Assembly (NCBI RefSeq): GCF_009914755.1
Contig: NC_060933.1
Source: the human T2T-CHM13v2.0 reference genome, Homo sapiens
Reading direction: 5' to 3' (one strand)
DNA length: 64,000 nt
The position numbers and the translations under genes were made by a program. Below the pieces are notes generated by a model. It did no database searches and was not told the DNA's origin. It saw only the letters and a list, made by a program, of their open reading frames with translations. This document shows positions 3,003 to 50,859 of the stretch, piece after piece. The number at the start of each line of letters is the position of its first letter. Positions within the stretch are counted from its first letter, which is position 1.

Positions 3003-3904
3003 GGAGGAGCCAAGATGGCCGAATAGGAACAGCTCCGGTCTACAGCTCCCAGCGTGAGCGACGCAGAAGACGGTGATTTCTGCATTTCCATCTGAGGTAG
3101 CGGGTTCATCTCACTAGGGAGTGCCAGACAGTGGGCGCAGGTCAGTGGGTGCGCGCACCGTGCGCCAGATGAAGCAGGGCGAGGCATTGCCTCACTTGGG
3201 AAGCGCAAGGGGTCAGGGAGTTCCCTTTCCGAGTCAAAGAAAGGGGTGACGGACGCACCTGGAAAATCGGGTCACTCCCACCCAAATACTGCGCTTTTCC
3301 GACAGGCTTAAAAAACCGCGAACCACGAGATTATATCCTGCACCTGGCTCGGAGGGTCCTACGCCCACGGAGTCTCGCTGATTGCTAGCACAGCAGTCTG
3401 AGATCAAACTGCAAGGCGGCAACGAGGCTGGGGGAGGGGCGCCCGCCATTGCCCAGGCTTGCTGAGGTAAACAAAGCAGCCAGGAAGCTCCAACTGGGCG
3501 GAGCCCACCACAGCTCAAGGAGGCCTGCCTACCTCTGTAGGCTCCACCTCTGGGGGCAGGGCACAGACAAACAAAAAGACAGCAGTAACCTCTGCAGACT
3601 TAAGTGTCCCTGTCTGACAGCTTTGAAGAGAGCAGTGGTTCTCCCAGCACGCAGCTGGAGATCTGAGAAGGGGCAGACTGCCTCCTCAAGTGGGTCCCTG
3701 ACCCCTGACCCCTGAGCAGCCTAACTGGGAGGCACCCCGTAGCAGGGGCAGACTGACACCTCACACGGCAGGGTACTCCAACAGACCTGCAGCTGAGGGT
3801 CCTGTCTGTTAGAAGGAAAACTAACAAACAGAAAGGACATCCACACCAAAAACCCATCTGTACATCACCATCATCAAAGACCAAAAGTAGATAAAACCAC
3901 AAAG
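3003..3904 (+). promoter_or_regulatory. L1 5'UTR with internal sense and antisense promoter
   Basis: YY1 site caagatggccg at the 5' end; CpG-rich; ~900 bp, matching the short form that lacks the 129-bp ZNF93-bound segment. Confidence 0.8.
3234..3449 (-). CDS. ORF0: L1 ORF0, intact 71-aa antisense ORF
   Basis: MAGAPPPASLPPCSLISDCC...RFSRCVRHPFL, 71 codons from the ATG at 3449; expression unknown. Confidence 0.75.
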   Translation of the reverse strand: MAGAPPPASLPPCSLISDCCASNQRDSVGVGPSEPGAGYNLVVRGFLSLSEKRSIWVGVTRFSRCVRHPFL

Positions 3905-4920
3905 ATGGGGAAAATACAGAACAGAAAAACTGGAAACTGTAAAAAGCAGAGCGCCTCTCCTCCTCCAAAAGAAGGGAGTTCCTCACCAGCAAGGGAACAA
4001 AGCTGGATGGAGAATGACTTTGACGAGCTGAGAGAAGAAGGCTTCAGACGATCAAATTACTCTGAGCTACGGGAGGACAGTCAAACCAAAGGCAAAGAAG
4101 TTGAAAACTTTGAAAAAAATTTAGAAGAATGTATAACTAGAATAACCAATACAGAGAAGTGCTTAAAGGAGCTGATGGAGCTGAAAACCAAAGCTCGAGA
4201 ACTACGTGAAGAATGCAGAAGCCTCAGGAGCCAATGCAATCAACTGGAAGAAAGGGTATCAGCGATGGAAGATGAAATGAATGAAATGAAGCGAGAAGGG
4301 AAGTTTAGAGAAAAAAGAATAAAAAGAAATGAGCAAAGCCTCCAAGAAATATGGGACTATGTGAAAAGACCAAATCTACGTCTGATTGGTGTACCTGAAA
4401 GTGATGGGGAGAATGGAACCAAGTTGGAAAACACTCTGCAGGATATTATCTAGGAGAACTTCCCCAGTCTAGCAAGGCAGGCCAATGTTCAGATTCAGGA
4501 AATACAGAGAACGCCACAAAGATACTCCTCGAGAAGAGCAACTCCAAGACACATAATTGTCAGATTCACCAAAGTTGAAATGAAGGAAAAAATGTTAAGG
4601 GCAGCCAGAGAGAAAGGTCGGGTTACCCTCAAAGGGAAGCCCATCAGACTAACAGCAGATCTCTCGGCAGAAACCCTACAAGCCAGAAGAGAGTGGGGGC
4701 CAATATTCAACATTCTTAAAGACAAGAATTTTCAACCAGAATTTCATATCCAGCCAAACTAAGCTTCATAAGCGAAGGCGAAATAAAATACTTTACAGAC
4801 AAGCAAATGCTGAGAGATTTTGTCACCACCAGGCCTGCCCTAAAAGAGCTCCTGAAGGAAGCGCTAAACATGGAAAGGAACAACCGGTACCAGCCGCTGC
4901 AAAATCATGCCAAAATGTAA
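3905..4920 (+). pseudogene. L1 ORF1, disrupted
   Basis: MGKIQNRK... ORF1p; premature TAG at 4451-4453 and a 1-bp deletion near 4737. Confidence 0.95.
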
Positions 4921-4983
4921 ACACCATCGAGACTAGGAAGAAACTGCATCAACTAATGAGCAAAATAACCAGCTAACATCATA

Positions 4984-8783
<3,800 letters not shown>

Positions 8784-9269
8784 ACGATGAGATCACATGG
8801 ACACAGGAGGGGGAATATCACACTCTGGGGACTGTTGTGGGGTGGGGGAGGGGAGAGGGATAGCATTGGGAGATATACCTAATGCTAGATGACGAGTTAG
8901 TGGGTGCAGTGCACCAGCATGGCACATGTTTACATATGTAACTAACCTGCACAATGTGCACATGTACCCTAAAACTTAAAGTATAATAAAAAAATTAAAA
9001 AAAAAGAAAATGGGCTAATCTCTTTAAGTAAGAAAAAGATGAGTTTAAAGAGAACTATTACATAAATAATAGTATATAAGAAAAACATAATGAGAATGAG
9101 TCACAAAGGAGGCTCAAGTACCCCCAAAATGTTTTCAACAAAAGCAACTGAAATGTTAATGCCCATTGATCTTATTAGTAATACAAATTGACACATAATA
9201 AACCAAACAGTGAAACCCATTGAGGCACTGGGCTTTAAGAAACTGGCTTGGATGATTCAGAGAGTGGGT

Positions 9270-9510
9270 AATAACTAACATCTTTTGGGTGGATAAGACC
9301 TGTCAGGCATCATTTAAATGCTCTGCAAGCATTAATTTAAACTCATTTGATTTCTAGAACACCTTTACGTGGTAGGTGATTATTGTTATGCCCATTTTCT
9401 AGATGGGTTAACTGAAGGACAGAGAGGTTAGTAACTTGCCCAATTATCTGCCATTTGTAAGTCACAGAGAACCTGCTTTTCCTTAAGTCTGACAACCCAG
9501 TCTGCTTATT
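9270..9510 (-). mobile_element. MIR SINE
   Basis: Core cccattttctagatgggttaactgaaggacagagaggttagtaacttgccc. Confidence 0.75.
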
Positions 9511-10810
9511 TTGAATGTGAACTGGATTTTGGTTTCTTGGTGCTATATATTAGTCATTTATAACTCCCCAGTGTTAGCACAATGCCCTGTACTTTGTAAG
9601 AAAAATGAAATAAAAAATAAATGAATGAGTAAAGGAATACGTGTGATGATGGTAGCAGTTTGAAATGACCCTAAAATTTTCTCCACATTTATTTTCCACT
9701 TAAAACAATAAGAGGCAAACCAATCAAAGTACCGAATGGAAGTGCCAGGTCAAAGGATTCCCTTCTCTCACACACTGGGCTGTGGCCACAGCTAGGACTT
9801 GGCAAACCCTCAACTCAGCTTCTTAGAAGCATGATGAGGTAAACCGAGGGCTTACTTGACTCTGATGCCTTAAAAAGTCCACTTTGCCTACTGTTGCCCC
9901 ATGGCCCTTTCAATTTGACTACTCCATTGCTGTCATAGTTCTCTTTCCTCCATTAAGAATGTTCATAAGACCTGGAAGAAATTCTTCCAATTGGTCAGTT
10001 ATCCTGCCAAGTGCAAGTATCTCAATTATTATTTCAGTGCTGCCTGGGAGACTTGGAAGAGGGTGTGGGAAGGGGAGAAGGGACAGTGACACTTTAGGCA
10101 TGTCTTGTGCAAGCCAGGCATAGCTGCCATGACTTCAGGGAACAGGGATTTCAAGCTGGGGCTCTTTGCTGGACTGTGAATGGAGTGTTTCCTCCTTTCT
10201 AAGTTGTCTACTGTCCTTGGCAGTTAATCCATTGGTATATGTTTCAGGAACAAATATGAAACTTTAATCCTTTTAACAAGTGAATTTAAACCTTTTGTAT
10301 TATGGTCATATCTAGGGCAGGGGAAATCCTTCATTCCATAGCTTCCTCCACTCACTTCTCCACCCTGCCTAAATTATGTACAAATTGTGTGCTCTATGGA
10401 AGGCAAGGCATTTTCTGCTTTCACAACTTGTGGCTATACTTGGCAATTATTAAATCAATATGTGATTCAGGAACAAATATGAACTTTAATCCCTTTGGCA
10501 GGTAAAGAAGACAAGTCTTTTCATATTCAGCTCAAGAATTTGGTCATGTTAAAGCCATACTAATCCATAGAAAAAAATAAAGTTTATAATTCATCATATT
10601 GTTTTCCCACTATTCCCAAATGCTCACTCATGGACAGAGAGAAGGAAAACAGATACAGGTCCAGAATCTTCTTTTGACTTTTCTAATCTCTCTAATTAAT
10701 TTTTTCACTCATTCATTTATTCATTCAACAGACATGAACCATCTTCTATGCTTTATACTTAGCTGGGCCTTGCTGGGCTTGATTCCAAGCTGCAGGTTGG
10801 TCCAATAGGC

Positions 10811-11158
10811 CAGCGGTCTCCAATAGGCCAGCGGTCTCCTTTTTGGCATCAGGGACCAGTTTCATGGAAGACAATTTTTCCACAGACCGGTTGGGGAGTG
10901 GGAGATGATTTGGGGATAAAACTGTTCCACCTCATAAGAATCATCAGGCATTAGCTTCTCATAAGAAGCATGCAACCTAGATCCCTCGCATGCGCAGTTC
11001 ACAATAGGGTTCACACTCTTATGAGAATCTAATGCTGCCACTGCTCTGATGGGAGGCAGAGCTCAGGCGGTAACGCTCACTAACCCACTGCTCACCTACT
11101 GCTGTGCGGCCTTATCCTAACAGGCCATGGACTGGGTACTGGGATTTGGGAACCTCTG
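10811..11158. mobile_element. MER1B-like hAT-Charlie MITE
   Basis: cagcggtctcc...ttttggcatcagggaccagtttcatggaagacaatttttcc; 8-bp TSD caataggc / cagtaggc. Confidence 0.85.
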
Positions 11159-11289
11159 CAGTAGGCTATACAGGACATTTCTTTTTCCCTCACGGCAATG
11201 GCAGAAATGCAAAAGGGCAAGCCCAGTTTCAAATCTGCTAACATCCCATTGGCCAAAGCAAGTCACATAGCCAAGCTCTAAAAATTCTA

Positions 11290-11773
11290 TGTTCAGAGAA
11301 CACAGCCTTCCAAAAGGAAGGCCAAATAAACATTTTCAGACAAATAAAAACTGTGAGAATTTGTCACTGCCAAAGAAAATAATAGAATTCTTCAGACAGA
11401 AAAAAATGAATACAGATGGATGCAGACACATGAAAAAGAATAAAAAACAACTTAGAAGGTAAATAAATTAATCTAAATGAATTTTGACTGTATAAAACAG
11501 CCCCAGTAAAGTTTTAGGGCATACACACTGTGTAAATGTAAACAGAGAATTTAATATATAAAAAATTTATATGTGTCAGCAATTGTCATAAATGGTAGAA
11601 GGGCAAGTGGATTTAAATATTCTAAGGTCATTACTTTCTCCCAAAATTGACCCGTACAATAAATACAATCCTGATTTTAAAAATCAATAATATTTTTTGT
11701 GGGGGTGGACAATGAGAATGTAATAACTAATTCTAAAATGTATATAAGGATACAAAGGGTCAAGAATAGCAAA
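11290..11773 (+). mobile_element. Old L1M fragments
   Basis: Degenerate ORF1-end and ORF2 motifs (agacaaataaaaactgtgagaatttgtcac; ctaattctaaaatgtatata). Confidence 0.6.
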
Positions 11774-12041
11774 CATGCACAGCTCAGTTATTAGGCTTTC
11801 ATTGTCTAGTCTTTCAATACACGCATATCTTTACTATTTGAAAGGTGTTACAGCTGTCGAAGAATCGTTGTGGACCTGAGGATAATTTCTTGCAAAGCTG
11901 AATGCAAGGGTACTGTCATTCATAGTGTTGATATAAAAATACCAGAAATCTTCACTTTTGCTACGTAGATATAGCATTGGGCTATTATGTTACAACACTG
12001 AAATATATTGATTTATTTTTAAAATACTTTTATAAGAAAAA
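11774..12041 (+). other. Orphan retroposed fragment of non-repeat sequence (possible mRNA 3' end)
   Basis: Flanked by 12-bp direct repeat aagaatagcaaa (11762-11773, 12042-12053); short A-rich 3' end; AATATA about 30 nt upstream. Confidence 0.6.
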
Positions 12042-13662
12042 AAGAATAGCAAAGATAATTTTATCTTTCTTAACCTCTTATGAAAAGTGTCAAACATATA
12101 CAAAAGCAGACAGAAAAATATAATGAACCTATTACCCATCTTCAATAGTTTTCAGTTCATGGTCAGTATTGTTTTATCTATACCCCCATGCCCACTTCTT
12201 CATGTAATTTACTTGTGCTTTCAGGGCCTACTCAGGTCCAGTCATGTATATACCACTTCCACTTGATAATGAAGTGTTGCTGTGCATGCCATGCCCAACT
12301 TTATGTCTCGGTGAATCAGATAATACCCAGTTATGATGAACCACTATAGTCACATGGTAACTTGGTAGTCTGTGGTCAAGTGTTGATTTTTACTAAGGCC
12401 CAGCAGCAGGCAAAGAGCTGCCTCTCTCATTATCTGTGGTGATGGCAGGGCCCTGTCTCAAAAATCCTAAAGGCTTGTGCTGTCATTCACTTATAGGTGC
12501 CTGGCAAAGACTCCAAACAGCATCCCTATCTGCCACCAACACTTCAAGCACCATTAGATCTGCTGGATCATATGTCCCAAGTGGCAGAGCAGCCTGTACA
12601 GCAGCCTGGACCTGTTGTGGAGCCTTCTCTTGTTCTGGGCCCTAATCAAACTAGTAGCTTTTTGGTCACTTGAAAAAGAGGCTGGGTAACACACCCAAAA
12701 GAGGAATATATTGCCTCCAAGATCCAGATAGATCCACGAGGCATTGTGCCTTTTTCTTGGCTGTACGAAGGACCATATGCAACAACATTTTCTTCACCTT
12801 AAAAGGGCTATCTAAACATGTCCCATACCACAGGACCCCTAGAAATTTCACTAAAGAAGGCCCCTGAGTTCTAGTTGGATTTATTTCCCACTCTTTGGCA
12901 TACACATGTCTTACTAGTCTAGAGTAGTTGCTATATTTGCTAACTGGGGCCAATCAGCATAATGTCATCAATGGAATGCACCAGTATTAACCCTCGTAGA
13001 AGGGAAAGGTGATCAAGTTCCCTGAGAACTAAATTATGACATAGAGCTGGAGAGTTGATATTCCCCTGAGATAGCACACTGAAGGCACATCGCTGGCCTT
13101 GCCAGCTGAGGGCAAATTGCTCTAGTAGGCCTTATGGACAGGTATGAAGAAAAAGCTGTCTGCAAGATCAATAACTATATATGAAGAAGCAGGAGATGCG
13201 TTAATTTGCTGAAGCAATGAAACCACATCTGGTACAGCAGCTGCAATTGGAGTCATCACCTGGCTGAGATTACGATATCCATTGACATTCTTCAAGATCT
13301 CTCTGTCTTCTGCACAGGCCAAATAGGAGAGGTGAATGGGGATGTGGTTGGAATTACTATCTGTCCATGCTTCAAGGCTTCACACTAATCTCTGCAATTT
13401 ATCCAGGATGAAATATTGCTTTTGGTTTACTATTTTCCTAAGTAGAGCTCTCATGGCCTCCAATTGGCCTTTCCACCAAAATAGCTCTCACTCTGTAGGT
13501 CATGGAACCAATATGAGGATTCTTCCAGCTGCTAAATATGTCTATTCCAATTATGCATCTAGAACTGGGGAAATAACCTGGATGGTCTCAGGGACCCACT
13601 GAACCCACTGTGAAATGAACCTGAGCTAAAATTCCATTAATCACCTTACCTCCAAAGACCTC

Positions 13663-14749
13663 TGTTAGGAAATAAAAAATAAAAAACCCACAAACTGTTT
13701 TTTCCTCTGCTCTCACATCGCAGCAACAATCACCACAGAAGATCCGTGACTAAATGTGTGGGGATTTCTCCCCACCAAAAAGCAAGCAAGCAATTCTGTA
13801 CCAACTAGGTGTCCTCCAATTCAATTAATTTTGATGCTTTCTACCTAGAGATAACCTCAGAAACCACAAGTTGAGGGCTCAGTCTCTAAGACTGTTCTTC
13901 CTTCAGACACCAGTTATAAGCCCAGGCCTCTGGAACTTCTGATCAACTGGCTTCAAGTTGGAGTTCCCACAACCTCTTTTTGGGGTTTGATTATTTTGCT
14001 AGAGGAGCTCACAGAACTCAAGGAAATACTTGAGTTCTGAAGCACTGAAACCACAGGACCCCTAGAAATTTCCTCAAGGAAACACTTGAGTTCAGTAAGC
14101 TGCTCAGAGGCAAGGTGTTGGGGAAGGGGCATACAGCTTCCATGCACTCGTTTGGTGTGCCACCCTCCAGGAACCTCCAGGTGTTCAGCTATCTGGAAGC
14201 TCCCCAAACTCAGTCTTCTTTGTCCTTTTATGGAGACTTCATTGGATAGACATGATTGAAGCATGAAAAACCATGTAGAAATGTGATTGGACAAAAAGGA
14301 TATGATCTAATAGTAACAGTCTGAGTGGGAAAACCCAGAAAGACCTCTATATTTAGATTCTTGGCCTCTATGTGTAGCATTTCTTCCTCCAGGGTATGGG
14401 ACAGGACCCTCTCTAGAATGCAGGCCTTATGACTTACTATCAAACAAGGTAGTTCAGATAATTTCTTTATGGACAGAAAGGTGGGGGCTTATGGCTGGCT
14501 TTCAGGAAACAGAGTTCTGGTTTCTATGATTCAATCTGGGGAAGAAAGACTCTAGTTTCTAGGGATGGCCTTGAGGGAGAATGAGAGTCAGAAATAGGGC
14601 CAGAGAAGGTCAGAGAGAAACTTTTGCTTCTGAGGCCTAAAACACCCTAACATTATAACAGAAGACTGTAACAAGGACTATGGGAGTTATGAGCCAGAAA
14701 CTGTGAATGAAAAGATATGCATATTTACACATCTGTGCATAACATTACA
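13663..14749. mobile_element. Solo LTR, MER21/MER34-group, nested in ERV-L
   Basis: TG...CA bounded; caattcaatt...ctacctagagata and gactatgggagttatgagccag motifs; ERV-L resumes on both sides. Confidence 0.7.
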
Positions 14750-15513
14750 ACCTTCTGGACTGAATGGAAGGCCACAATGATGTTTTGGATCACCTGGAAT
14801 CAGTCAGTTCAGAGCCAGTGTCTAAGTAGTTCTCAAAAGCTCTGATTATTTTCTTTTCCCCAACGCACAGTTACCCTGGTGAAAGGCAGTAGGTACCTTT
14901 GGGGAAAGCTGGGATAAAGATTAGCAGTATACATTTTTGGTAATTTACTTGGGTTCTTCCTAAAGGGAATCCAGCCTCTACTTCATTCGAGGGGTTCTGA
15001 GCCTATAAACTGACTTAAGTCTGGAAATCGATCAAAGGGCCATGTTTTTATGATTGGGGTTAGATGTTTGTTCACTTGACATAGTTTTTTGCTTGTATAG
15101 ATAAAGTGAGAATTTAGTAGGCATCCTATTTCACTTCTAGGAACACCATGATCAAGTAACCAATGTTATAGGCCTGCATGAGTCAGACTATTACGATTGT
15201 TGCTTTGACTCTGCTGTCCATTGTGGTAATTACACCCGCCTTGCTTTTGGCAGCTGAGTGCCACAATTTGGCCCCTGTCATCCTGGAATCCAATCACTCC
15301 TAATTCATTTAGGTTTTCTTATTGAATGGCTACGGTTACCACTCTGAAGTCTGGCCTACAAAGGAGAGCTATCACAAAGCCCTTCACAGATGCTGGGGCT
15401 ACCCTCGCAAATGTATTTCTCACATTCATGGTGAAAGATAGGTCTTCTGTATCCTCCCAGTGTGAGTGAGTAGGTCTTAAATACAAATCTACTCTAACAT
15501 TTCAATATTCCCA

Positions 15514-15898
15514 TGCTGTGGTTTGAATGCATCCCTCAAATTTCATGTGTTGGAAACTCAATCCCCAAATTCATATATTGATGACTTTTGGAGGTGGGGC
15601 CTGTAGGATTAGTTAAGGTCATTAATTAGGATTAGTTAAGATCTTTAGAGTGGAACTTCCATGACAAGACTGGTGGCTTTATACAAGAGAAAGAAAGACC
15701 TGACCTGGCACGTTCTTGCCCTTTTGCCATGTGATGCCCTCCACCATGTTATGATACAGCAAGAAAACCCCCAACAGATGCTAGAGCCATGCTGTTGAAC
15801 TTCCTGCCTCCAGAACTTTGAGCTAAATAAACTTAGTTTCTTTATAAATTACCTAGTCTGTGGCATTCTGTTATAGCAACAGAAAACAGACTAAGACA
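15514..15898 (+). mobile_element. MST-family MaLR solo LTR nested in ERV-L
   Basis: tgctgtggtttgaatg...ttctgttatagcaacagaaaacagactaagaca. Confidence 0.85.
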
Positions 15899-37263: not shown

Positions 37264-37747
37264 TGTGATGGTTAGTTTTATGTGTCAACTTGACTGGACC
37301 ATGGGGTCCCCAGATGTTTGTTTAAACATTATTCTGAGTGTATCTTCAAGGGTGTTTATGGATGAGATTAACATTTTAATCTGTAAAGCAAATTGCTTGC
37401 CATAATGTGGCTGGGCCTTATTCTATCAGGCCTAAATAGAACAAAAAGTCTGACTCTTCCCTGAGTAAGAGAGAATTTTCCAGCAGATGGCCTTTGGACT
37501 TCATCAGAAATATCAGCTCTTCCTGACTGATGACCTTTAAAGTGGGACATCAGCTATCCTTGAGTCCCCAGTCTGCCAACCCATTCTGCAGATTGGACTT
37601 GCCAGCTTTCATAATACTGTGAACCATTCCTTATTTATATTTATTCATCATATATATGTACACACACATATATGTAAATATATATATTTACATTATATTC
37701 CATATATATATTCTGTTTCTCTGAAGAACCCTGACCAATCTAATATA
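37264..37747 (+). mobile_element. MLT2 solo LTR nested in an older MLT1-type LTR
   Basis: tgtgatggttagttttatgtgtcaacttgactgg...ctgtttctctgaagaaccctgac. Confidence 0.85.
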
Positions 37748-39464
37748 TTTTGCTAAATGGTTTCTGGGAAACCATAAGCTTTCTTGATATGAAAGGACAG
37801 TAGCATGTGGTACAGACATTATCCTACCTATTTTTCCTTCTTCTTGCTTTGAAGTGATGACTGGAGCTAGAACTGCAGCAGCCATCTTGCAACTATGAGG
37901 GAAAGGTCAAAGAAACTAGAGATGTATATGCCCTGATATCAGAAATGCAACATCAGCAACTGCCTGCCTCTGGGCTTTTTGCTATCTGAGAAAACTATCC
38001 CCCAATTTTTAAAGGTCATTTTTGTTTTATGTTATTTTGAATTGAAAACTTTCCTAATTGATAGAGTAGTGATCTCAAATGCTAGAAAACTTTTCTAAAA
38101 AATATTTCTTACTAGACTTTCCTTGATGTATCATTGACTAGAGCAGAGTCACATGCTCACTCCTAAGCTAATTAGAAGTAAATGACCTTTTCATGATTGA
38201 CTTAAACAAATCAAAATCTACAATTCCAGAACAAGAAATGGGATAAATACCATGGAGAATAGGATAATACCTGAGAAAATCAGTGCTGATGTTAGGAAGC
38301 CAGTAGATGTTGAGTGGGTAACCAAGTGTGTCTGCCACACTTACAAAGGAAAAAGAATCAGATAGGCATCAAACTTCCTGAATACATACTAAAATCTAAA
38401 AATGAATTACGTTATTTCTATAGGCTACCTCCAAAAGTGAGCTGAAACCCAAAAATTCACTGTCTAGCCCTGTCAGGATAAAAATATATATTTGCAGAAA
38501 CTCAGGAATTCAGAGAACATTAATCACATACTTCATGTGAGAAAAACACTGCTAAACTACAAATGTTAGGACAGAGATTTCAAAATGAGGGGAGAGGAGA
38601 AGTAATAAGCAATACATCTGGCTCTATATGTAGAAAAATATAAGTGAATAGTGGCAGAGTGACCAAGAAATTATAATTTTAATTCTAAATAAGGATTTTT
38701 AAAACAAAAACTACATATTGCAAGGAAAAATATAAGAATCTTTGGGTCTTAGAGTACTAAATATTTCAATACTTGGATCTTAAAATATGATTTTAAAAAC
38801 TCTAGGATTTGATAGTAGTGGGTGGAAAACAGATTATGGGAAATGAAAGCATTCTAACAACAAATTAATTAGTTACAGTTTGTTTTCTTTTCTGTGTGGC
38901 TTGTTTTCTTTTCTTTACAGCTGGTTTTCATTTCCTTTCAAATTTAAAAGAGTGTATTTAACATTCCATCTTAAGGCAATGTGATAACCATGAATTCTTT
39001 GTGTGAGAAAGGAAAGAGGGAGGTTAATTTTTAATGAAAGTCGATAGTGTAGAGGAAAGAGGGTCTTCCCTGGCATCCTTCAGCCATTTACAACATTTTA
39101 CAAAACAATGCAGGTAAGGGAAAAGCTTTCACCCATAACTAGAGGAAAAAAGGTTCTAGCTGCCTAGGTTACAGCAGCCTGTGATGTGACTCAAGCCTCA
39201 TAATTCACATTTTTTAAGGCTCACAATAATTTAGAGTTCCAACAGCTTTGACTTTGAATTACTTATTTTCACAATAACACAAACAAAACTTGATATAATA
39301 AATGCATATATCCTTAGAATTGACAATATATATTTTATATGACCATGATTTGTACAAAAATTGTATTTGCTGCAAAAAACATTAAAATATAAAACAGTAA
39401 AGATTTTTAAAACCACAAACTCTGATCCTCATCCAATAAAATCAGAAAAATATCATATAAAAAT

Positions 39465-42400
39465 GAAGTGACAAGAGGGCAGAATAGAAGGTAACCCGCT
39501 CATATCTCCCTATAAGAATTCTGCATCCATCCATGGTAAAAAGTCACTCTGCAGGAGCCTCAGGATTGAGGTAGGAGTTTGTGAAACCCTAGTGAAGTCC
39601 AAGACATCAGAGGATCATTTGCAGAGGGAAGACCTACACATAGGTGGCTGATCCACCAAGCTTGTTCCTGGGTTCAAGCCAGAAAATGACCCAGTCTCCC
39701 AAGGGGTTTGGATACAACCCCACTTGGCCTTGATCCTGCAACCAAAGCCATCTGCCGAGGAGTCAAGAAGGAATTGTGCACACTAATAGAAAGGCTCATC
39801 TACCCACTGACAGTCGTGTTGGCAGTCAATCTGAACGTTGCTCTCTGGTTCTGCTCCAGCCCCCTCAGGTGAGGTCCCAGCTCAGAGCTGCTTACATAAG
39901 GATCCAGAGGGAGACTTGCCCATAACTTGCAGCCCAGTAGTCTGAGCCTCTCAGACAGGCTAGAGCTTGTAAACCTCTGTTCCACAACAGATACCAAGGA
40001 GGCCCAGTCTCAGCTCTGGCCTCTCACACTGCAACCAAGGAACTATTCCATCTTTACAGAAACTTGCTGGGAGAATGTGTCTCTCTGAGCCAATGAGACA
40101 GGGCTCTCCAGGTTCTGCCCCACAGCAGATGTCAAGGGGGCCCCATCTCAGCAACACTCCATCCTGCTGCAGTTGGGGAACTATCCCATCTATGCTGATA
40201 CCTGCTTGGAGATGTATACCTGTTTAAGCCAATGAGAAGGGCTCTTCAGCTTGTCCCACAGCAGATCCTGAGGGGCCCTAGTAACCGCTCTGACTCCCCC
40301 TGCTGCACAGAACTATCCCATCTATCCAGAGACCTACTAGAAGATGCGTACCCATATAAACCACTGGGATAAGCATGCCAGTGTCTGTCTCACAGCAGGT
40401 CCCTTGGAGGTCCAGCCTCAGCTTTGGTCTTTCCTGCTGCAGTCGAAGAACTACCCTGCTTGTGCAGGGTACTGCTGGGTGACATATATCTGTCTGAGCC
40501 AACAAAATAGGCCCATCAGCTTCCTTCCCATAACAGATCCTGAGAGGGACCAATTTCAACTCCAGCCTCCCTTGCTGCAGGTGGGGACCCATCCCACATG
40601 TGCAGAAACCTGCTGAGAGGCATGCACAGGTGGGATGGGTCCCCAACTGGGGATAGCCATCCATCTTGGCCACCAGGACAGTCTTCTGGATTCAGGTCCC
40701 TGTCCAGCATTCCCACACAGCCCAAGTACCCTCCTTGAGTCTTCCCCTGATCCTTCTGGGCTGGAAAGCTGTGCCAATCTCATAGTCCTCATGAGACTTG
40801 CAGCAAGCCTGTACTTAGAGCATCTTCTACTGCTGAGATGGCTGCAGAGGTCAGAGGCTCAGAGAAAACAATAGTCAGACTGTATAGAATCCCTACAAGG
40901 ATAAGCACAAAGAAAGCTAGACTACAAAGACTAAAATATTAAATAAATACCTAACCTATCAATACGCAGACATCATTTCATGTTCACAGCATTAAAAACA
41001 CACACGGAAATATGACTCTTCATATGGAAAAACTAAGGTGCCAGAGGCTGACCCTAAAGGGATAGAGATATGCACTTTCTTAGACAAATAATACAAAATA
41101 GCTGTTTTAAGAAGCTTGATTGACTTCTACAAAATACACATAATCAATTCAGAAATGTATCAGAGAAATTTAACAGAGATTAAAATAATTAAAAAAAAAA
41201 AAAACCCAGAAATCCTGGAGCTGAAAAATACAATGAATGAAAGGAAAAATGCAATAGATCAGCAGAACTGATCAAGCTGAACAATCAGTGAGCTTGAAAA
41301 CAGAATATTTGAAAATATACAGTCAGAGGAGAAAAAAGAATGAAAAGTATAAAGAAAGCTTACAGGAATGACAGGACAACAATAAAAGAGCAATCATTCA
41401 TGTTACTTAGTTAAAGAGGGAAATGAGAAAGACAAGAAGGTAGAAAGCTTTTTCAAAGAAATAATAACACAAACCTTCCAAACCTGGAGAAAGATATAAA
41501 TATCCAGGTACAGGAAGGTCAAGGGTCACCAATCACTTTCAACCCATATAAGAATACCCTTAGGTATTACAATCAAACTCTCAAAGATCAAAGACAAAGA
41601 AGCGATTATGAAAGCAATGAGAAAAAAGAAGCAAATAACAGATAAGGTAGATCTGAAATGCCTGGCAGCAGACTTCTCAGTAGAAACTGTACAGGCCAGG
41701 AGAGGTGAGATGATATATTCAGAGTGCTGAAAGAAGTAAACTGCAAAGCAAGAATACTGTTTCCAGTAAAGCTATTCTTCAGAAACGAAGGAGAGATAAA
41801 GGCTTTCCTAGACAAACAAAAGCTGAGGGAATTTGTTGCTACCAGACCTGTCCTACAAGAAATGCTAACGAGAGTTCTTTAGGCCAAAAGAAAAGGATAC
41901 CAATGTGATTGTTACACTAATATTGTAATTGTGGTGTGTAAATCAATTAAATCTTTACTAAGAAGACTAAAAGATAAAACTACTAAAAACAATAACTACA
42001 ACAATTTATTAAGAGATTAGCAATATAAAAATGTAAATTGCAGTATCAAAAATTCAAAATGTGTGAGGAGAGGGGAATTAATATGTATAAGGTTTTATTT
42101 TGTTAGTTTGTTTCTTTTTGTTTTTTTGTGATCAAAGCTAAGTTGGAATCAGTTTTAAGTAACTTGTTATAACTATAGAATTTTTTGTAATCTTCATATT
42201 AACCACCAAACAAAAACTTATGATAGATATACTGAAAATAAAAAGCAATGAATTAAAACATACTACCAGAGAAAATCACTTAACCACAAAGGAAGACAGT
42301 GAGAAAGGACGGAACTGGAGGCCTTTGGTAAGCCAGGCACAGAAAGACAAATATCGCATGTTCTCATTCATATGTGGGAGCTGAAAAAGTGGATCTCATG

Positions 42401-42730
42401 GAGATAGAGATTAAAATGGTGCTTACCAGAGGATGTAAAAGAAAGGCGAGGGAGGTAGGGATGAAGAGAAGTTGGTTAAAGGATACAAAAACATAGAAGG
42501 AATAGGTTCTAGTATTTGATGTATAGTAGGGAAATTATAGTTAACAATAACTTATTGTATATTTCAAAGTAGCTGGAAGAGAAGATTTGTAATGCTCCCA
42601 ACAGAAAGAAAAGATACATGTTTGAAGTGATGGCCATCCTGATTACCCTGATTTTCTCATTACACATTATATGCAGGTATCAAAATATTGCATGTACAAC
42701 TATTAAATATCAATTTTTTAAAAATTTAAA
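39465..42730 (+). mobile_element. L1MA-type LINE-1: long 5'UTR + ORF1 + 3'UTR, ORF2 missing
   Basis: ORF1 remnants about 40950-41900; junction near 42310 straight into an L1MA4-like 3'UTR (aagccaggcacagaaagacaaatatcgcatgttctc). Confidence 0.75.
39960..40630 (+). repeat. Five degenerate ~137-bp tandem monomers in the L1 5'UTR
   Basis: Anchor ca(c/t)a(a/g)cag(a/g)t at 39983, 40121, 40257, 40391, 40529. Confidence 0.85.
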
Positions 42731-43156
42731 AATCAAAAACACTTTTCAAAAAGAAACCTGTAAGTCCTAATGATGGTGGAGTAACCATAACACTCCTATA
42801 CTGCCTATAGGAGTATAGAAAGAAAGAAAAATGAAAGTACACATGAAAGAAAAATAAATTTCTATTTGGATAAAAGAAATAGATAATATAAATAAATACG
42901 ATCTTAAAAATTAGAAAAAGCAATCAAAAACCCAAACTAAGAAAATAAAAGCTAAAATTGATGAAATAGAAATTTTTTTACATGGAAGAAGAATGCATCA
43001 ACTGAAAAACTATTCCTTTGAGAGGACCAATAAAAACAACAAGCTTCATGAGCCTGATTATGGCAAAAATAAAATATGCCCACAAGAAAAAATATACATG
43101 ATTAGGAATGAAAAATGATAACTATCAAAGAAAGAGATTTTTTAAAAAATTGTAAG

Positions 43157-43480
43157 AGCCAGGTATGATGGCTCATGCCTGTAATCCCAGCACTTTGGGA
43201 GGCCAAGGCAGGAGGATGGCTTGGGGCCAGGAGTTCAAATAGCCTGTGCACCATGGTGAGACCCTGTCTCCCACAAAAAAACTAAAAAACTAGCCAGGCA
43301 TGGTGGCTCATACCTGTAGACCTAGCTACTCAGGAGCCTGAGGCAGGATAATTGCTTGAGCCCAGGAGGTTGAAGATGCAGTGAGCTATAATTGTGCCAC
43401 TGTACTCTAGCCTGGGTAGTAGAGTGAGACCCTGTCACAGAAAAAAAAAAAAAATATATATATATATATATATGTATATG
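43157..43480 (+). mobile_element. Alu (AluJ-like) with A/(TA)n tail
   Basis: Full dimer. Confidence 0.9.
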
Positions 43481-43624
43481 AATATTATATGCACATCTGT
43501 CAAAACAAATTTGAGAACCAGGAGGAAATTGCTGATTTCCTAGCAAAATACAAATGTCTAAAATTGACCTAAGAAATAGAAAACATTAAAAGGCCAATTT
43601 CCATAGAATAGATTTGAAAGGTGA

Positions 43625-44326
43625 TAAACCATAGCTGTCCAAAGATGTCTGTGTTCTAACCCCTGAATATGTGAATAAAGTATGTTATTTTATATGGCAA
43701 AAGGAACTTTACAGTTGTGATTATGTTAAGGATCTAGACATAGAGAAAGTACCTTGCATTAATTCCAGGTGGCCCCAATGATGTAATTGCAAGGGTCTTT
43801 ATAAGAGGGAGTGTGGTAGGCTGAATAATGGCCCCCAAATATATCGAAGTCTTGATCCCTGGATCCTATGAATATTACCTTATATGGCAAAGGGATTTTG
43901 CAGGTGTGATTAAATTAGGAATTTTTTTTAGATGAAGAGATTATCCTGTATTAGCTGGGTGGGCCCTAAATATAATCACAAGTGTGCTTGTAAGAAGGAG
44001 AAAGAGGGAGATTTGACCACAGTAGAGGGTGATGCCATCATGGAAGCAGAGAGAGATTTGAAGACGTTATACTGCTACCTTTGAAAATGAAGGAAAGTGC
44101 AATGAGACATGTAATGCAAATGGCCCCTAAAAGCTGGAAAAGGCAAGGAAACGGATTCTCCTCCAGAGCCTTCAGAGGGAGTGCAGTCCTGCTGACACCT
44201 TGACTTTAGCCCAGTGAAGCTGATTTTGTACTTATGACCTCTATAACTATAAGAGAATAAATTTGTGTTGTCTTAAGCCCCTAAATTTGTGGTAATTTGC
44301 TACAGTAGAAATAGGAAACTAACACA
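43625..44326 (+). mobile_element. MLT1 (MLT1D-like) LTRs: partial copy followed by a complete copy from about 43812
   Basis: tgtggtaggctgaataatggccccc...gctacagtagaaataggaaactaacaca. Confidence 0.85.
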
Positions 44327-44572
44327 GGTGAATTTTTCTTTAATTTTTTAATTTTTTATTTTTTATTATTATACTTTAAGTTTTAGGGTACATGTGCACA
44401 ATGTGCAGGTTAGTTACATATGTATACATGTGCCATGTTTGTGCGCTGCACCCACTAACTCCTCATCTAGCATTAGGTATATCTCCCAATGCTAACCCTC
44501 CCCCCTCCCCCCAACCCACAACAGTCCCCAGAGTGTGATATTCCCCTTCCTGTGTCCATGTGTTCTCATTGT

Positions 44573-48416
<3,844 letters not shown>

Positions 48417-48464
48417 TTATTTTGCTCGTTAGTTGATGCAGTTTCTTCCTAGTCTCGATGGTCT

Positions 48465-49481
48465 TTACAATTTGGCATGATTTTGCAGCGGCTGGTACTG
48501 GTTGTTCCTTTCTATGTTTAGCACTTCCTTCAGGAGCTCTTTTAGGGCAGGCCTGGTGGTGACAAAATTTCTCAGCATTTGCTTGTCTGTAAAGTATTTT
48601 ATTTCTCCTTCACTTATAAAGCTTAGTTTGGCTGGATATGAAATTCTGGGTTGAAAATTCTTTTCTTTAAGAACGTTGAATATTGGCCCCCACTCTCTTC
48701 TGGCTTGTAGAGTTTCTGCCGAGAGATCCGCTGTTAGTCTGATGGGCTTCCCTTTGAGGGTAACCCGACCTTTCTCTCTGGCTGCCCTTAACATTTTTTC
48801 CTTCATTTCAACTTTGGTGAATCTGACAATTATGTGTCTTGGAGTTGCTCTTCTCGAGGAGTATCTTTGTGGCGTTCTCTGTATTTCCTGAATCTGAATG
48901 TTGGCCTGCTTTGCTAGATTGGGCAAGTTCTCCTGGACAATATCCTGCAGAGTGTTTTCCAACTTGGTTCCATTCTCCCCGTCACTTTCAGGTACAACAA
49001 TCAGACGTAGATTTGGTCTTTTCACATAGTCCCATATTTCTTGGAGGCTTTGCTCGTTTCTTTTGATTCTTTTTTCTCTAAACTTCCCTTCTCACTTCAT
49101 TTCATTCATTTCATCTTCCATCACTGATACCCTTTCTTCCAGTTGATCGCATCGGCTCCTGAGGCTTCTGCATTCTTCACGTAGTTCTCGAGCTTTGGTT
49201 TTCAGCTCCATCAGCTCCTTTAAGCACTTCTCTGTATTGATTATTCTAGTTATACATTCTTCTAAATTTTTTTCAAAGTTTTCAACTTCTTTGCCTTTGG
49301 TTTGAATGTCGTCCCATAGCTCAGAGTAATTTGATCATCTGAAGCCTTCTTCTCTCAGCTCGTCAAAGTCATTCTCCATCCAGGTTTGTTCCGTTGCTGG
49401 TGAGGAACTGTGTTCCTTTGGAGGAGGAGAGGCGCTCTGCTTTTTACAGTTTCCAGTTTTTCTGCTCTGTTTTTTCCCCAT
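48465..49481 (-). pseudogene. L1 ORF1, disrupted
   Basis: ATG at 49481; CGA>TGA stop near 49336; C-terminal 186 aa open. Confidence 0.92.
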
Positions 49482-49936
49482 CTTTGTGGTTTTATCTACT
49501 TTTGGTCTTTAATGATGGTGATGTGCAGATGGGTTTTTGGTGTGGATGTCCTTTCTGTTTGTTAGTTTTCCTTCTAACAGACAGGACCCTCAGCTGCAGG
49601 TCTGTTGGAATACCCTGCCGTGTGAGGTGTCAGTGTGCCCCTGCTTGGGGGTGCCTCCCAGTTAGGCTGCTCGGGGGTCAGGGGTCAGGGACCCACTTGA
49701 GGAGGCAGTCTGCCCGTTCTCAGATCTCCAGCTGCGTGCTGGGAGAACCACTGCTCTCTTCAAAGCTGTCAGACAGGGACACTTAAGTCTGCAGAGGTTA
49801 CTGCTGTCTTTTTGTTTGTCTGTGCCCTGCCCCCAGAGGTGGAGCCTACAGAGGCAGGCAGGCCTCCTTGAGCTGTGGTGGGCTCCACCCAGTTCGAGCT
49901 TCCCTGCTGCTTTGTTTACCTAAGCAAGCCTGGGCA

Positions 49937-50104
49937 ATGGCGGGCGCCCCTCCCCCAGCCTCGTTGCCGCCTTGCAGTTTGATCTCAGACTGCTGTGCTA
50001 GCAATCAGCGAGGCTCCGTGGGCGTAGGACCCTCCGAGCCAGGTGTGGGACACAATCTCCTGGTGCGCTGTTTTTTAAGCCCGTCAGTATTCGGGTGCGA
50101 GTGA
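49937..50104 (+). pseudogene. ORF0: L1 ORF0, truncated to 55 aa
   Basis: MAGAPPPASL...; frameshifted by a ~10-bp 5'UTR deletion near 50084. Confidence 0.7.
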
Positions 50105-50859
50105 CCTGATCTTCCAGGTGCCGTCTGTCACCCCTTTCTCTGACTAGGAAAGGGAACTCCCTGATCCTCTGCGCTTCCGAGTGAGGCAATGCCTCGCCCT
50201 GCTTCCGCTGGCGCACGGTGCGCGCACCCACTGACCTGCGCCCACTGTCTGGCACTCCCTAGTGAGATGAACCCGCTACCTCAGATGGAAATGCAGAAAT
50301 CACCCGTCTTCTGCGTTGCTCACGCTGGGAGCTGGAGACCGGAGCTGTTCCTATTCGGCCATCTTGGCTCCTCTCAGGTGAATTTTGATCTACCATTAAA
50401 ACAAGGTGCCAGGACCGGATGTTTCGTAACAGTGCTCTCTCTAACTCTTAAATAACAGATAGTTCTAATCCTATTTAAGCTCCTTCATTTATTTTATGAA
50501 GTCAGCATAATCCTAATTCCAAAGCCAGATGGAGAATATAAAAATGTAAAACTCTTACAAATGAATCTAGATACAAAAATTCTAAATAAATTATTAGTAA
50601 ACAAAATCTAGCCTCTAATAAAATGAATATTACCAAGTTGTGTATATTTTAGGAATGCAAATGTATGATCTAAAATCAATCACTTATCACTCATTACAAC
50701 AGCAAATTAAGGAAGATAAACTACATAATCATATCAACACTTGCTGAAAAGGTGTTGATAAAATTCATCCATCTCCCCTAATAAAACCTCAACATAACAT
50801 AGAAATAGAAGGAAATCGATGAAAAAAAATGAATGGCAAGTACATGAAATATAATAAGC

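What the first reader, a model, noticed from the sequence alone, without database searches (positions are those of the whole stretch)
3003..50373. Two independently inserted, inverted full-length L1s share about 17 non-consensus variants, including the same ORF2 stop codon
Seen: L1a (+) and L1b (-) have different TSDs, so they are separate retrotransposition events. Both carry TCA>TAA at the same ORF2 site (codon 498 in L1b; LLKLFQ*; 6448-50 and 46908-10). Both also carry the same departures from the consensus as I recall it: KIDRIL, RTKII, QKIHES, ARAMRQ, LYTSNR, LPMPFF, IWKQKR, LIQLKS, WETIF, LQQIY, plus nucleotide variants gaggtagcggg, aactgtaaaa, accaaagctc, gatacacagg, aaagcactc, gttcgacc. 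They still differ at interspersed sites I recall as PA2 versus PA3 diagnostics (gacggtg/gacgggtg, accctac/actctac, NRAKD/NRTKD, gagatcac/gagaacac, cacaatg/cacattg). Established: L1 mobilises mainly in cis, so a master element with this stop is unlikely, and nearby inverted repeats undergo gene conversion. Inference: repeated short-tract conversion has partly homogenised two L1s 35 kb apart. Alternative: both come from a trans-mobilised, stop-carrying L1 lineage, which would itself be notable.
Basis: partly seen in the sequence, partly recalled or inferred. Interest (0 to 1): 0.8.

Follow-up and report, generated by a model that had tools for sequence, protein, structure and literature searches.

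The report
Two neighbouring L1s exchanged sequence patches
Two separately inserted, oppositely oriented full-length L1 retrotransposons 35 kb apart on human chromosome 9 come from different L1 lineages yet share a set of rare mutations, including the same stop codon, most likely because old, patchy gene conversion copied short stretches from one to the other.

Summary
L1a (3003-9004, +) and L1b (44337-50374, -) have different target-site duplications. They are 96.0% identical.

The stop does not mark a dispersed lineage. The TAA 30-mer occurs at 44 places, on several L1 backgrounds. That is about as often as TGA (67) and TTA (58) at the same site. Four of four unbiased members of L1a's own sub-lineage read TCA.

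The two elements belong to different sub-lineages:
- L1a carries 12 of 16 alleles diagnostic of an abundant sub-lineage. Its nearest relatives are dispersed copies (2.9-3.0% versus 3.27% to L1b).
- L1b lacks 8 of these alleles and keeps older alleles at seven or more other sites.

Even so, the pair shares 6 alleles absent from 52 other aligned copies, plus 9 rare ones. Each is rare genome-wide, and none of 89 dispersed carriers showed a second one.

This conflict needs sequence exchange between the two loci. Shared and unshared sites interleave finely, there are no long identical tracts, and divergence around shared sites is not reduced. So the exchange was old and in short patches.

This is a new instance of a known process and of moderate interest.

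The parts
3002..9004 (+). L1a: full-length L1 of primate-specific (L1PA) grade, with a 5' UTR, broken ORF1 and ORF2, a 3' UTR and an A-rich tail. It belongs to the 'TA' sub-lineage (4723C, 6501T, 6516A, 6531A, 6603A, 6721G, 6765A, 8710A).
   Evidence: Searches give the anatomy. Searches give the sub-lineage alleles. In one search its nearest relatives are L056, L054 and L055 (2.91-3.04%).
2987..3001 (+). L1a target-site duplication, 5' copy (15 nt). Its partner lies at 9005-9019, with 1 mismatch.
   Evidence: read directly.
9005..9019 (+). L1a target-site duplication, 3' copy.
44337..50374 (-). L1b: full-length L1. ORF2 is open for 497 codons up to the TAA, then the same frame is open for a further 686 codons. 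Its native lineage differs from L1a's: it has the 6501C-6531C haplotype, 4723A, and older alleles 4405C, 4915T, 5154G, 6003G, 7569G, 8793A and 8917A (L1a coordinates).
   Evidence: L059 on another chromosome shares 3231T, 3251A, 7569G, 7864C, 8128C and the 6501C-6531C haplotype with it.
50375..50386 (-). L1b target-site duplication, 5' copy (12 nt). Its partner lies at 44325-44336.
44325..44336 (-). L1b target-site duplication, 3' copy.
6448..6450 (+). TAA stop in L1a ORF2, where other copies read TCA. It lies between two sites at which the copies differ (6409 and 6501).
46908..46910 (-). The same TAA stop in L1b ORF2, codon 498.
3100..8245 (+). Span holding the pair-shared rare alleles, in L1a coordinates. 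Absent from the 52 other aligned copies: 3100G, 3939G, 5452A, 5618A, 7506A, 8069C. Rare: 3166C, 3604G, 5574G, 6034C, 6993G, 7190G, 7864C, 7999C, 8128C. One search also lists 3422A and 8245C as rare.
6501..6765 (+). Clearest unconverted island. L1a has T, A, A, A, G, A and L1b has C, G, C, C, A, G at 6501, 6516, 6531, 6603, 6721 and 6765. Both haplotypes are common in dispersed copies.

Best explanation
L1a and L1b are two independent retrotransposition insertions from different L1 sub-lineages. L1b comes from an older line and L1a from the abundant 'TA' line. They lie 35 kb apart in opposite orientation.

After both were in place, non-allelic (interlocus) gene conversion copied short stretches from one element into the other. 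This took either many short tracts or one or a few events with patchy mismatch repair.

Each tract carried whatever the donor had at that spot. That included private mutations such as the TCA>TAA change in ORF2, and the donor's lineage alleles.

Most transfers seem to have gone from L1b into L1a. Against its own sub-lineage, L1a carries older or L1b-lineage alleles (5593A, 6033C, 7860T, 7864C, 8128C, 3462C, 8453A). A few may have gone the other way (7190G, perhaps 3939G).

The exchange is old, because divergence around the shared sites equals that elsewhere.

Shown: separate insertion, different lineage backgrounds, pair-specific sharing, and the absence of a dispersed lineage combining the alleles. 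Inferred: that conversion caused the sharing, its direction, and its age.
For: 1. Separate insertions. The target-site duplications and tails differ and the flanks show no homology.

2. Different backgrounds.
- Of 16 alleles diagnostic of the 'TA' sub-lineage, L1a has 12 and L1b has 6.
- By the stricter classes, 8 sites have L1a matching TA and L1b matching non-TA. Five of these are non-CpG: 3491, 4723, 6531, 6603, 8710. No site shows the reverse.
- 6501 and 6721 also differ.
- The TA haplotype and 4723C are abundant: 710 places within 2 mismatches and 96 exact places. They co-occur in at least 8 dispersed copies, by my coordinate comparison of the two listings.
- L1b alone keeps older alleles: 5-13 sites shared with each of 9 older copies, against 1-4 for L1a.

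3. Distances. L1a is nearest to dispersed TA copies (2.91, 2.98, 3.04%) and is 3.27% from L1b. L1b's nearest copy is L1a (3.27%), followed by 3.49%.

4. Pair-specific sharing.
- 6 alleles are absent from 52 other aligned copies, and 9 occur in 3 or fewer.
- 9 non-CpG doubletons, the top value among young pairs.

5. Genome-wide exact counts, including the pair:
- 5574G+5593A 41-mer: 2
- 5618A: 8
- 8069C+8077A: 8
- 3939G: 9
- 3100G: 9
- 7506A: 11
- 5452A: 14
- 7864C: 15
- 6034C: 31
These listings are complete. By my coordinate comparison, 0 of the 89 dispersed carriers appear in a second list.

6. The stop is not a lineage marker.
- TAA 44, TGA 67, TTA 58, against at least 6000 TCA.
- The first 20 TAA copies range from 86% to 96% identity to L1a.
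- 4 of 4 unbiased TA copies read TCA.

7. Direction. TA copies (7 of 7) have 5593T, 6033T and 7860C, while both L1a and L1b have the older A, C and T. L059 shares 7864C, 8128C and the 6501C-6531C haplotype with L1b.

8. Neighbours share this rare allele elsewhere too. There are 4 pairs within 125 kb among 47 TAA carriers, against 0.113 expected. One such pair, L039/L040, has non-homologous flanks.

9. Published precedent.
- Non-allelic conversion between dispersed repeats is established and depends on distance for Alu (passages read in PMC8230782 and PMC6598467).
- Repair of a break in a chromosomal LINE by conversion from other LINEs, with tracts down to 13 bp, is cited in PMC1920257 (passage read). 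The cited paper itself is not held.
Against: - No tract structure was demonstrated. Runs tests on the order of shared versus unshared informative sites give P = 0.126, 0.099 and 0.113.
- The longest identical run is 178 nt, with a mean gap of 25.6 nt over 226 differing positions. By my own arithmetic this is within chance.
- Differences within 150 nt of the shared rare sites are not reduced: 11.2 against a null of 10.2. Run length around them is 83 against 69 (P = 0.10). Only the nearest-difference distance is nominally larger (25.4 against 17.8, P = 0.043).
- A one-way model leaves conflicts. These are 7190G and perhaps 3939G for L1b-to-L1a. For L1a-to-L1b they are 5593A, 6033C, 3462C and 8453A.
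- The reference panel is small and biased. Thirty loci were picked by the search tool through rare words, 20 were picked for TAA, and 6 were picked as carriers of one shared allele. Only 4 copies are unbiased members of L1a's sub-lineage.
- Exact k-mer lists miss carriers that have a nearby private mutation.
- Some shared alleles are common in lineages my panel barely samples (7999C 239 places, 8128C 476 places).
- 35 kb is further than the range under 10 kb reported for Alu conversion.
Confidence: 0.62

Rival explanations
1. Common source. L1a and L1b are siblings, or parent and daughter, copied from one progenitor that already carried the rare alleles and the ORF2 stop. At least one copy was therefore mobilised in trans. 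Later, one copy was overwritten at many sites by conversion from other, third-party L1s.
For: - The shared rare alleles run almost the whole length, from 3100 to 8245.
- Divergence is uniform along the element.
- Non-CpG singleton counts are similar: L1a 25, L1b 32.
- Shared and unshared sites are interleaved without clear blocks.
Against: - One copy would have to be overwritten at 14 or more lineage-informative sites. These are 7 non-CpG TA-type sites plus 7 older-type sites, in roughly 8 or more separate patches. Meanwhile the other copy shows none (0 sites in the reverse class).
- The overwritten alleles form one coherent lineage type, which is also seen in L059.
- Two offspring of a source with no other surviving copy would have to land within 41 kb. 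By my arithmetic on a uniform genome, the chance is about 3e-5.
- The L1b-specific branch is longer than L1a's. Distances to TA copies are 3.5-3.7% for L1b against 2.9-3.0% for L1a.
Confidence: 0.15
2. Regional exchange among several L1s. Both elements are fine-scale mosaics built by conversion from various L1s in the neighbourhood. Part of what the pair shares then comes from common third-party donors rather than from direct exchange between them.
For: - L058, an older L1 118 kb from L1b, carries 6033C+6034C, 5593A and 3422A.
- L060, about 175 kb upstream of L1a, carries 7999C, 8245C and 6322G.
- 15 of the 18 listed chr9 carriers of 7999C lie between 0.2 and 12.3 Mb.
- In the pair, 7999C sits between 7864C and 8128C. 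Yet 7999C and 8128C never coincide in dispersed copies on chromosomes 1 to 3, by my coordinate comparison.
- Neighbour pairs are in excess among carriers of rare alleles.
Against: - Six shared alleles are absent from all 52 other copies, including L058 and L060.
- Their dispersed carriers lie on other chromosomes or megabases away.
- Direct exchange, or a single private donor, is therefore still needed for the core of the signal.
Confidence: 0.12
3. No exchange. The shared alleles reflect sub-family ancestry or recurrent mutation at hot spots, and the shared stop is a coincidence.
For: - Several shared alleles are common elsewhere: 8128C at 476 places, 7999C at 239, and 5593A, the older allele, in 12 of 52 panel copies (a 41-mer holding it lists 146 places within 1 mismatch).
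- TAA recurs on many backgrounds.
- 12 of the 17 shared rare alleles are transversions, several of them A>C in A-rich context (my tally). This could hint at hot spots.
Against: - Nine k-mers holding shared alleles have only 2 to 31 exact places each, and no dispersed carrier has two of them.
- Most other young pairs share 0-2 doubletons (the next highest share 6 and 4), against 9 for this pair.
- Unbiased members of L1a's sub-lineage lack the shared rare alleles, except 3166C in L054, and all read TCA at the stop codon.
Confidence: 0.05
4. Assembly artefact. Reads from one copy were used to polish the other, which planted single shared alleles.
For: The shared alleles are single sites interleaved with retained differences and show no tract structure. 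Cross-polishing would look like this.
Against: - The copies differ at 226 positions in 6 kb and have unique flanks.
- From my own knowledge, not tested here: long accurate reads span such a repeat and place it uniquely.
Confidence: 0.03

Closest known systems
Non-allelic (interlocus) gene conversion between dispersed transposable elements, best documented for Alu (Aleshin and Zhi 2010 and Kass et al. 1995, as cited in PMC8230782 and PMC6598467; passages read)
   Same: Independent insertions end up sharing non-diagnostic mutations or switch sub-family alleles. The effect is strongest between neighbours. It distorts sub-family assignment and age estimates.
   Different: - Here the partners are 6-kb L1s rather than 300-nt Alus.
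- They lie 35 kb apart, beyond the range of under 10 kb quoted for Alu.
- They are inverted.
- The result is a fine mosaic over about 5 kb, including a transferred stop codon.
Repair of a break in a chromosomal LINE by conversion from other genomic LINEs (Tremblay, Jasin and Chartrand 2000, as cited in PMC1920257; passage read, the paper itself not held), and the intrachromosomal L1 conversion proposed for one locus in PMC1920257
   Same: L1 copies serve as conversion donors for one another. Tracts can be very short (13 bp is quoted). A donor on the same chromosome was proposed.
   Different: - Those are cell-culture events, or a single inserted segment.
- Here the evidence is an old germline mosaic inferred from allele patterns.
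- The break and the tracts were not observed.
Concerted evolution of inverted repeats and palindromes in segmental duplications (my own knowledge)
   Same: Inverted orientation on one chromosome favours intrachromatid conversion without rearrangement.
   Different: - Palindrome arms are kept above 99.9% identical by continuing conversion.
- Here the copies are only 96% identical and the exchange stopped long ago.
- The partners are not duplicates of each other.
Trans-complemented, non-autonomous L1 lineages
   Same: Both copies carry a stop codon in ORF2 and have insertion hallmarks.
   Different: No dispersed family shares the stop together with linked variants. The stop sits on unrelated backgrounds, at the same frequency as the other two alleles of that base.

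Membership tests
LINE-1 insertion by target-primed reverse transcription (each element) | Flanking target-site duplication and a 3' A-rich tail | tested here: met
   L1a has a 15-nt duplication (1 mismatch) and L1b a 12-nt one. Both have A-rich tails.
LINE-1 insertion by target-primed reverse transcription (each element) | Full-length body with 5' UTR, ORF1, ORF2 and 3' UTR, colinear with other L1 copies | tested here: met
   Both align end to end, at 95-97% identity, with full-length copies from other chromosomes. The ORFs are broken.
I show only that the two copies fall in different allele-defined groups.
Non-allelic gene conversion between the two loci | The two copies arose independently | tested here: met
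   Different target-site duplications and no flank homology.
Non-allelic gene conversion between the two loci | Incompatible site patterns: some sites group a copy with its own lineage, others group it with its neighbour | tested here: met
   - 8 sites group L1a with the TA sub-lineage against L1b. None shows the reverse.
- 15 sites group L1a with L1b against 52 other copies.
- L1b alone holds older alleles at 7 or more sites.
Non-allelic gene conversion between the two loci | The shared alleles are specific to the two loci, not to a dispersed lineage | tested here: met
   Nine k-mers have 2 to 31 exact places each. None of the 89 dispersed carriers appears in a second list (coordinates compared by eye).
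Non-allelic gene conversion between the two loci | Contiguous tracts, with lower divergence inside than outside | tested here: inconclusive
   - Runs tests give P = 0.10-0.13.
- The longest identical run is 178 nt.
- Local divergence is not reduced; one of three measures reaches P = 0.043.
Non-allelic gene conversion between the two loci | A change of state at an orthologous locus along the species tree | not testable with these tools
   No ape genomes are held.
Dispersed stop-carrying L1 lineage mobilised in trans | Several dispersed copies sharing the stop together with linked variants | tested here: not met
   - 44 TAA places against 67 TGA and 58 TTA.
- The first 20 TAA copies span 86-96% identity to L1a and scatter among TCA copies in the tree.
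- 4 of 4 unbiased copies of L1a's sub-lineage read TCA.

The most novel reading that the evidence does not exclude
Exchange between L1 copies may not be a rare accident. It may be a regular, distance-dependent process that reaches tens to hundreds of kilobases. If so, neighbouring L1s of different ages routinely swap short patches, and rare alleles spread within a chromosomal neighbourhood.

Hints:
- Carriers of the rare TAA allele form 4 pairs within 125 kb among 47, where 0.113 are expected.
- Similar pairs appear in the lists for 5618A, 4723C, TGA and TTA (hand counts).
- 15 of the 18 listed chr9 carriers of 7999C lie in the first 12.3 Mb.

Segmental duplications, and insertion preferences specific to one period, were not excluded for most of these pairs.
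Probability: 0.3. Interest if true: 0.7.

Novelty: new member of a known kind. Interest (0 to 1): 0.45.

Why it matters
L1 copies are dated, assigned to sub-families and traced to source elements on one assumption: that after insertion each copy changes only by its own mutations. This pair breaks that assumption.

Two elements from different lineages acquired one another's mutations, including a stop codon that looks like an inherited defect. Read naively, the pair would suggest a defective lineage mobilised in trans. Alternatively it would place the copies in the wrong sub-family or give them the wrong age.

If such exchange is common between neighbours up to about 100 kb apart, as the excess of neighbour pairs hints, several methods need a correction for it:
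- L1 phylogenies
- molecular-clock ages
- mutation-rate estimates taken from repeat copies

Tried and rejected
1. A stop-carrying lineage.
- 14 of the 30 loci nearest to L1a carry TAA, which at first looked like a lineage.
- I rejected this. The genome search skips common words, so it picks candidates through rare words that include the TAA itself.
- The raw counts of the three rare alleles are alike.

2. Sibling or parent-daughter copies.
- A tree of the central 3.3 kb, with the stop masked, puts L1a and L1b together.
- I set this aside after unbiased copies of L1a's sub-lineage showed that L1a shares diagnostic alleles with them that L1b lacks.

3. A single foreign 'patch' at 6409-6765 in one copy. 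I rejected this as the whole story. Diagnostic differences also lie at 3491, 4723 and 8710, and older alleles lie at 4405-8917.

4. A special TAA sub-lineage of L044, L046, L049 and L1a. I rejected it. Their shared alleles (4723C, 6516A, 6531A) belong to an abundant TCA-bearing sub-lineage.

5. Recent conversion. There are no long identical tracts.

6. L051, L052 and L053, fetched as possible third members, share only 1 to 6 of the 31 shared sites.

7. Searching the genome with the whole of L1b. Only 25 of 23,978 candidates were scored and L1a was not among them. The result shows only that many dispersed copies score as high as L1a does.

8. The earlier-findings tool was not open.

9. The Tremblay et al. 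2000 paper is not held.

10. Twenty-two of the 42 other TAA copies, and further controls, could not be fetched.


Full report
**What is there**

The window holds two full-length L1 elements.
- L1a lies at about 3002-9004 on the + strand. L1b lies at about 44337-50374 on the - strand.
- They align over 6042 columns at 96.03% identity, with 195 mismatches and 11 gap openings. Homology stops at the element ends.
- L1a is flanked by a 15-nt target-site duplication (2987-3001 and 9005-9019, one mismatch). L1b is flanked by an unrelated 12-nt duplication (50386-50375 and 44336-44325). Both have A-rich tails.
- Both carry TAA where other copies read TCA, at 6448-6450 and 46908-46910. In L1b the stop ends a 497-codon frame.
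- Every shared motif and peptide in the finding, and every differing motif pair, sits at aligned positions.

**Is the stop a lineage marker?**

The window's own genome can be searched. Exact 30-mers around the codon give these counts:

| Allele | Places |
|---|---|
| TAA | 44 |
| TCA | 6000 (3002 + 2998, possibly a cap) |
| TGA | 67 |
| TTA | 58 |

TAA is thus no commoner than the other two changes of that base.
- The first 20 TAA copies by chromosome (L031-L050) range from 86% to 96% identity to L1a. In a tree of the central 3.3 kb they scatter among TCA copies.
- 14 of the 30 loci returned for a 301-nt query carry TAA. This is a search bias: the tool skips common words and nominates candidates through rare ones.
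- Four copies chosen only for alleles of L1a's sub-lineage (L054-L057) all read TCA.
- There is therefore no dispersed stop-carrying lineage.

**The pair does share something special**

I aligned the two elements with 52 other copies. They comprise 24 of the 30 loci, the 20 TAA copies, and L051-L060.
- I dropped L001 and L011, which are the window's own copies.
- I dropped L002, L012, L017, L018 and L028, which are the same places as L044, L034, L049, L042 and L045.
- L005, the same place as L046, was aligned but left out of every count.
- L003 and L004 are near-duplicates of each other.

In this alignment:
- L1a and L1b agree on 6 alleles found in none of the 52: 3100G, 3939G, 5452A, 5618A, 7506A, 8069C.
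- They agree on 9 more found in at most three: 3166C, 3604G, 5574G, 6034C, 6993G, 7190G, 7864C, 7999C, 8128C.
- An earlier count on 50 copies also lists 3422A and 8245C.
- In the tally, made when 45 sequences were aligned, alleles carried by exactly two sequences number 9 for this pair, all non-CpG. Most young pairs have 0-2, and the next highest young pairs have 6 (L013/L022) and 4.

Genome-wide exact counts, including the pair:

| Allele(s) in the k-mer | Places |
|---|---|
| 5574G+5593A (41-mer) | 2 |
| 5618A | 8 |
| 8069C+8077A | 8 |
| 3939G | 9 |
| 3100G | 9 |
| 7506A | 11 |
| 5452A | 14 |
| 7860T+7864C | 15 |
| 6033C+6034C | 31 |
| 7999C | 239 |
| 8128C | 476 |

I compared the coordinates of the complete lists by eye. 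None of the 89 dispersed carriers of the eight single-allele k-mers (all rows except the 41-mer, 7999C and 8128C) appears in a second list.

Exact matching misses carriers that have a nearby private change. A real lineage should still have produced overlaps.

**The two elements are not the same kind of L1**

- L1a carries 6501T, 6516A, 6531A, 6603A, 6721G and 6765A. This 'TA' haplotype occurs at 710 places within two mismatches of L1a's 46-mer.
- L1a also carries 4723C, found at 96 exact places. In at least eight dispersed copies the two marks lie about 1820 nt apart, that is, in one element (my comparison of the two listings).
- Of 16 alleles diagnostic of this sub-lineage, L1a has 12 and L1b has 6.
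- Under the stricter classes, eight sites have L1a with the sub-lineage and L1b with the rest: 3491, 3499*, 4723, 6516*, 6531, 6603, 8710, 8910* (* marks CpG sites). No site shows the reverse. Five sites have both copies with the sub-lineage, and two have both against it.
- L1b alone keeps alleles typical of older copies: 4405C, 4915T, 5154G, 6003G, 7569G, 8793A and 8917A. It shares four 5' UTR alleles with the older L058.
- Against each of nine older copies, L1b alone shares 5-13 alleles that are rare in young copies. L1a alone shares 1-4.
- L059, from chromosome 1, shares 3231T, 3251A, 7569G, 7864C, 8128C and the 6501C-6531C haplotype with L1b. It is the best sample I have of L1b's native line.
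- In substitutions per site, L1a is closest to dispersed copies (L056 2.91%, L054 2.98%, L055 3.04%) and is 3.27% from L1b. L1b's closest copy is L1a (3.27%), then L034 (3.49%).

**What this implies**

- A tree cannot hold both sets of sites. If L1a groups with its sub-lineage, the 15 pair-specific alleles must have arisen twice. If L1a groups with L1b, L1b must have reverted at 14 or more diagnostic sites to exactly the alleles of another lineage.
- Sequence must therefore have moved between lineages. The combination exists only at these two loci, 35 kb apart and inverted. The simplest reading is non-allelic gene conversion between them.
- Direction. All seven sampled members of L1a's sub-lineage have 5593T, 6033T and 7860C, while both L1a and L1b have the older A, C and T. 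L1a also has 7864C and 8128C, which L1b shares with L059, and the non-sub-lineage alleles 3462C and 8453A. Most transfers therefore ran from L1b into L1a.
- 7190G is carried by three of the sub-lineage copies and no other panel copy. 3939G occurs in one dispersed copy that also has 4723C. Both suggest some flow the other way.
- The stop lies between two differing sites, 6409 and 6501. If it came by conversion, that tract was under about 90 nt. Alternatively, 6409C is a later change in L1a.

**What I could not show**

- The informative sites do not fall into clear blocks. Runs tests give P = 0.126, 0.099 and 0.113 for three site sets.
- The longest identical run is 178 nt, with 226 differing positions and a mean gap of 25.6 nt. 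By my own arithmetic this is within chance.
- Around the 16 shared rare sites, differences within 150 nt are 11.2 against a null of 10.2. Run length is 83 against 69 ± 11 (P = 0.10). The nearest difference lies 25.4 nt away against 17.8 (P = 0.043).
- The exchange was therefore old and in short patches, or a single event with patchy repair. The effect is small. By my arithmetic, the L1a-L1b distance is about 0.35% (some 20 sites) lower than L1b's distance to other copies of L1a's sub-lineage.
- Sub-family names (L1PA2, L1PA3) could not be checked because no repeat library is held.
- Ages and order of insertion need ape orthologues, which are not held.

**Rivals**

- Common source plus later overwriting. 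This fits the even spread of shared sites and the similar singleton counts (25 and 32). But it needs many third-party conversions into one copy only, and a very unlikely co-location.
- Wider regional exchange. It has some support: L058, 118 kb away, has 6033C+6034C; L060, about 175 kb away, has 7999C and 8245C; 7999C carriers cluster on distal 9p. It cannot supply the six alleles that only the pair has.
- Chance or hot spots. This is excluded for the core alleles by their rarity and lack of co-occurrence.
- Assembly cross-polishing. It could mimic single-site sharing and was not tested. It is unlikely for 6-kb repeats that differ at 226 positions.

**Comparison with what is known**

- Conversion between dispersed repeats is established, mostly for Alu. 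The effect there is quoted as strongest within about 10 kb (passages read in PMC8230782 and PMC6598467).
- Repair of a broken chromosomal LINE from other LINEs, with tracts down to 13 bp, and one proposed intrachromosomal L1 conversion, are mentioned in PMC1920257 (passages read).
- Six literature searches turned up no description of this locus. Nor did they find a distance-resolved survey for L1. The held library lacks most subscription journals, so this is not proof of absence.
- I file the finding as a new, well-resolved instance of a known process.

**A wider hint**

- Among 47 carriers of the TAA allele there are 4 pairs within 125 kb. About 0.113 are expected if the allele were spread at random over L1 copies, using the neighbour density of the first 100 TCA copies on chromosome 1. 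This gives P = 6e-6, or 2e-4 without the window's own pair.
- One such pair, L039/L040, has non-homologous flanks.
- Other allele lists show similar pairs (hand counts). Several lie in duplicated pericentromeric or Y regions.
- This may mean that exchange between neighbouring L1s is common. I did not exclude duplications or insertion biases.

Noticed in passing
Genome-wide (lists); window pair at 6435-6464 and 46894-46923: Carriers of rare L1 alleles form neighbour pairs far more often than expected.
- TAA: 4 pairs within 125 kb among 47 carriers, against 0.113 expected.
- 5618A: C14:80297374 and C14:80328347.
- 4723C: about 12 pairs within 125 kb among 96 carriers (hand count).
- TGA: 8 pairs. 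TTA: 3 pairs. Several of these lie in pericentromeric or Y duplications.
   Followed up: partly
G000:C9, 0.2-12.3 Mb (listing): Of the 18 listed chr9 places carrying the 7999C (LIQLKS) 37-mer, 15 lie in the first 12.3 Mb. Similar clusters appear on chr6 at 73-82 Mb and chr8 at 68-79 Mb. The cause is unknown.
   Followed up: no
L058 = G000:C9:6300400-6306800 (outside the window, 118 kb from L1b): An older L1, 93% identical to the pair and with a different 5' UTR type. It carries 6033C+6034C (QKIHES), 5593A and 3422A, so it is a possible third-party donor for those alleles.
   Followed up: partly
L021/L027 = G000:C5:83.355 and 83.421 Mb: Another inverted pair, 66 kb apart and 96.8% identical over 3.3 kb. 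The two share TAA, a further change 5 nt downstream, and 4 doubletons. Their flanks were not fetched.
   Followed up: partly
L003/L004 = G000:C12:97.70 and 97.68 Mb: An inverted L1 pair 20 kb apart and 99.5% identical over 3.3 kb. This is probably a young inverted duplication or a recent conversion.
   Followed up: no
window 3003-9030 (L1a): Against the panel majority, L1a lacks 36 bases, mostly single A or T. L1b lacks 10. This accounts for L1a's many broken frames.
   Followed up: no
window 6449 and its genome-wide homologues: At this TCA site the two transversions (A 44, G 67) are as common as the transition (T 58). This is unexplained. Some TGA places lie in duplicated regions.
   Followed up: no
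window 3100-8245: By my tally, 12 of the 17 pair-shared rare alleles (the stop included) are transversions. Six are A>C in A-rich context (6034, 7459, 7864, 7999, 8069, 8128). This is at least partly ascertainment, because recurrent transitions do not count as rare.
   Followed up: no
window 60960-61299: A third L1 piece, a 3' end of about 340 nt, 94.2% identical to L1a.
   Followed up: no
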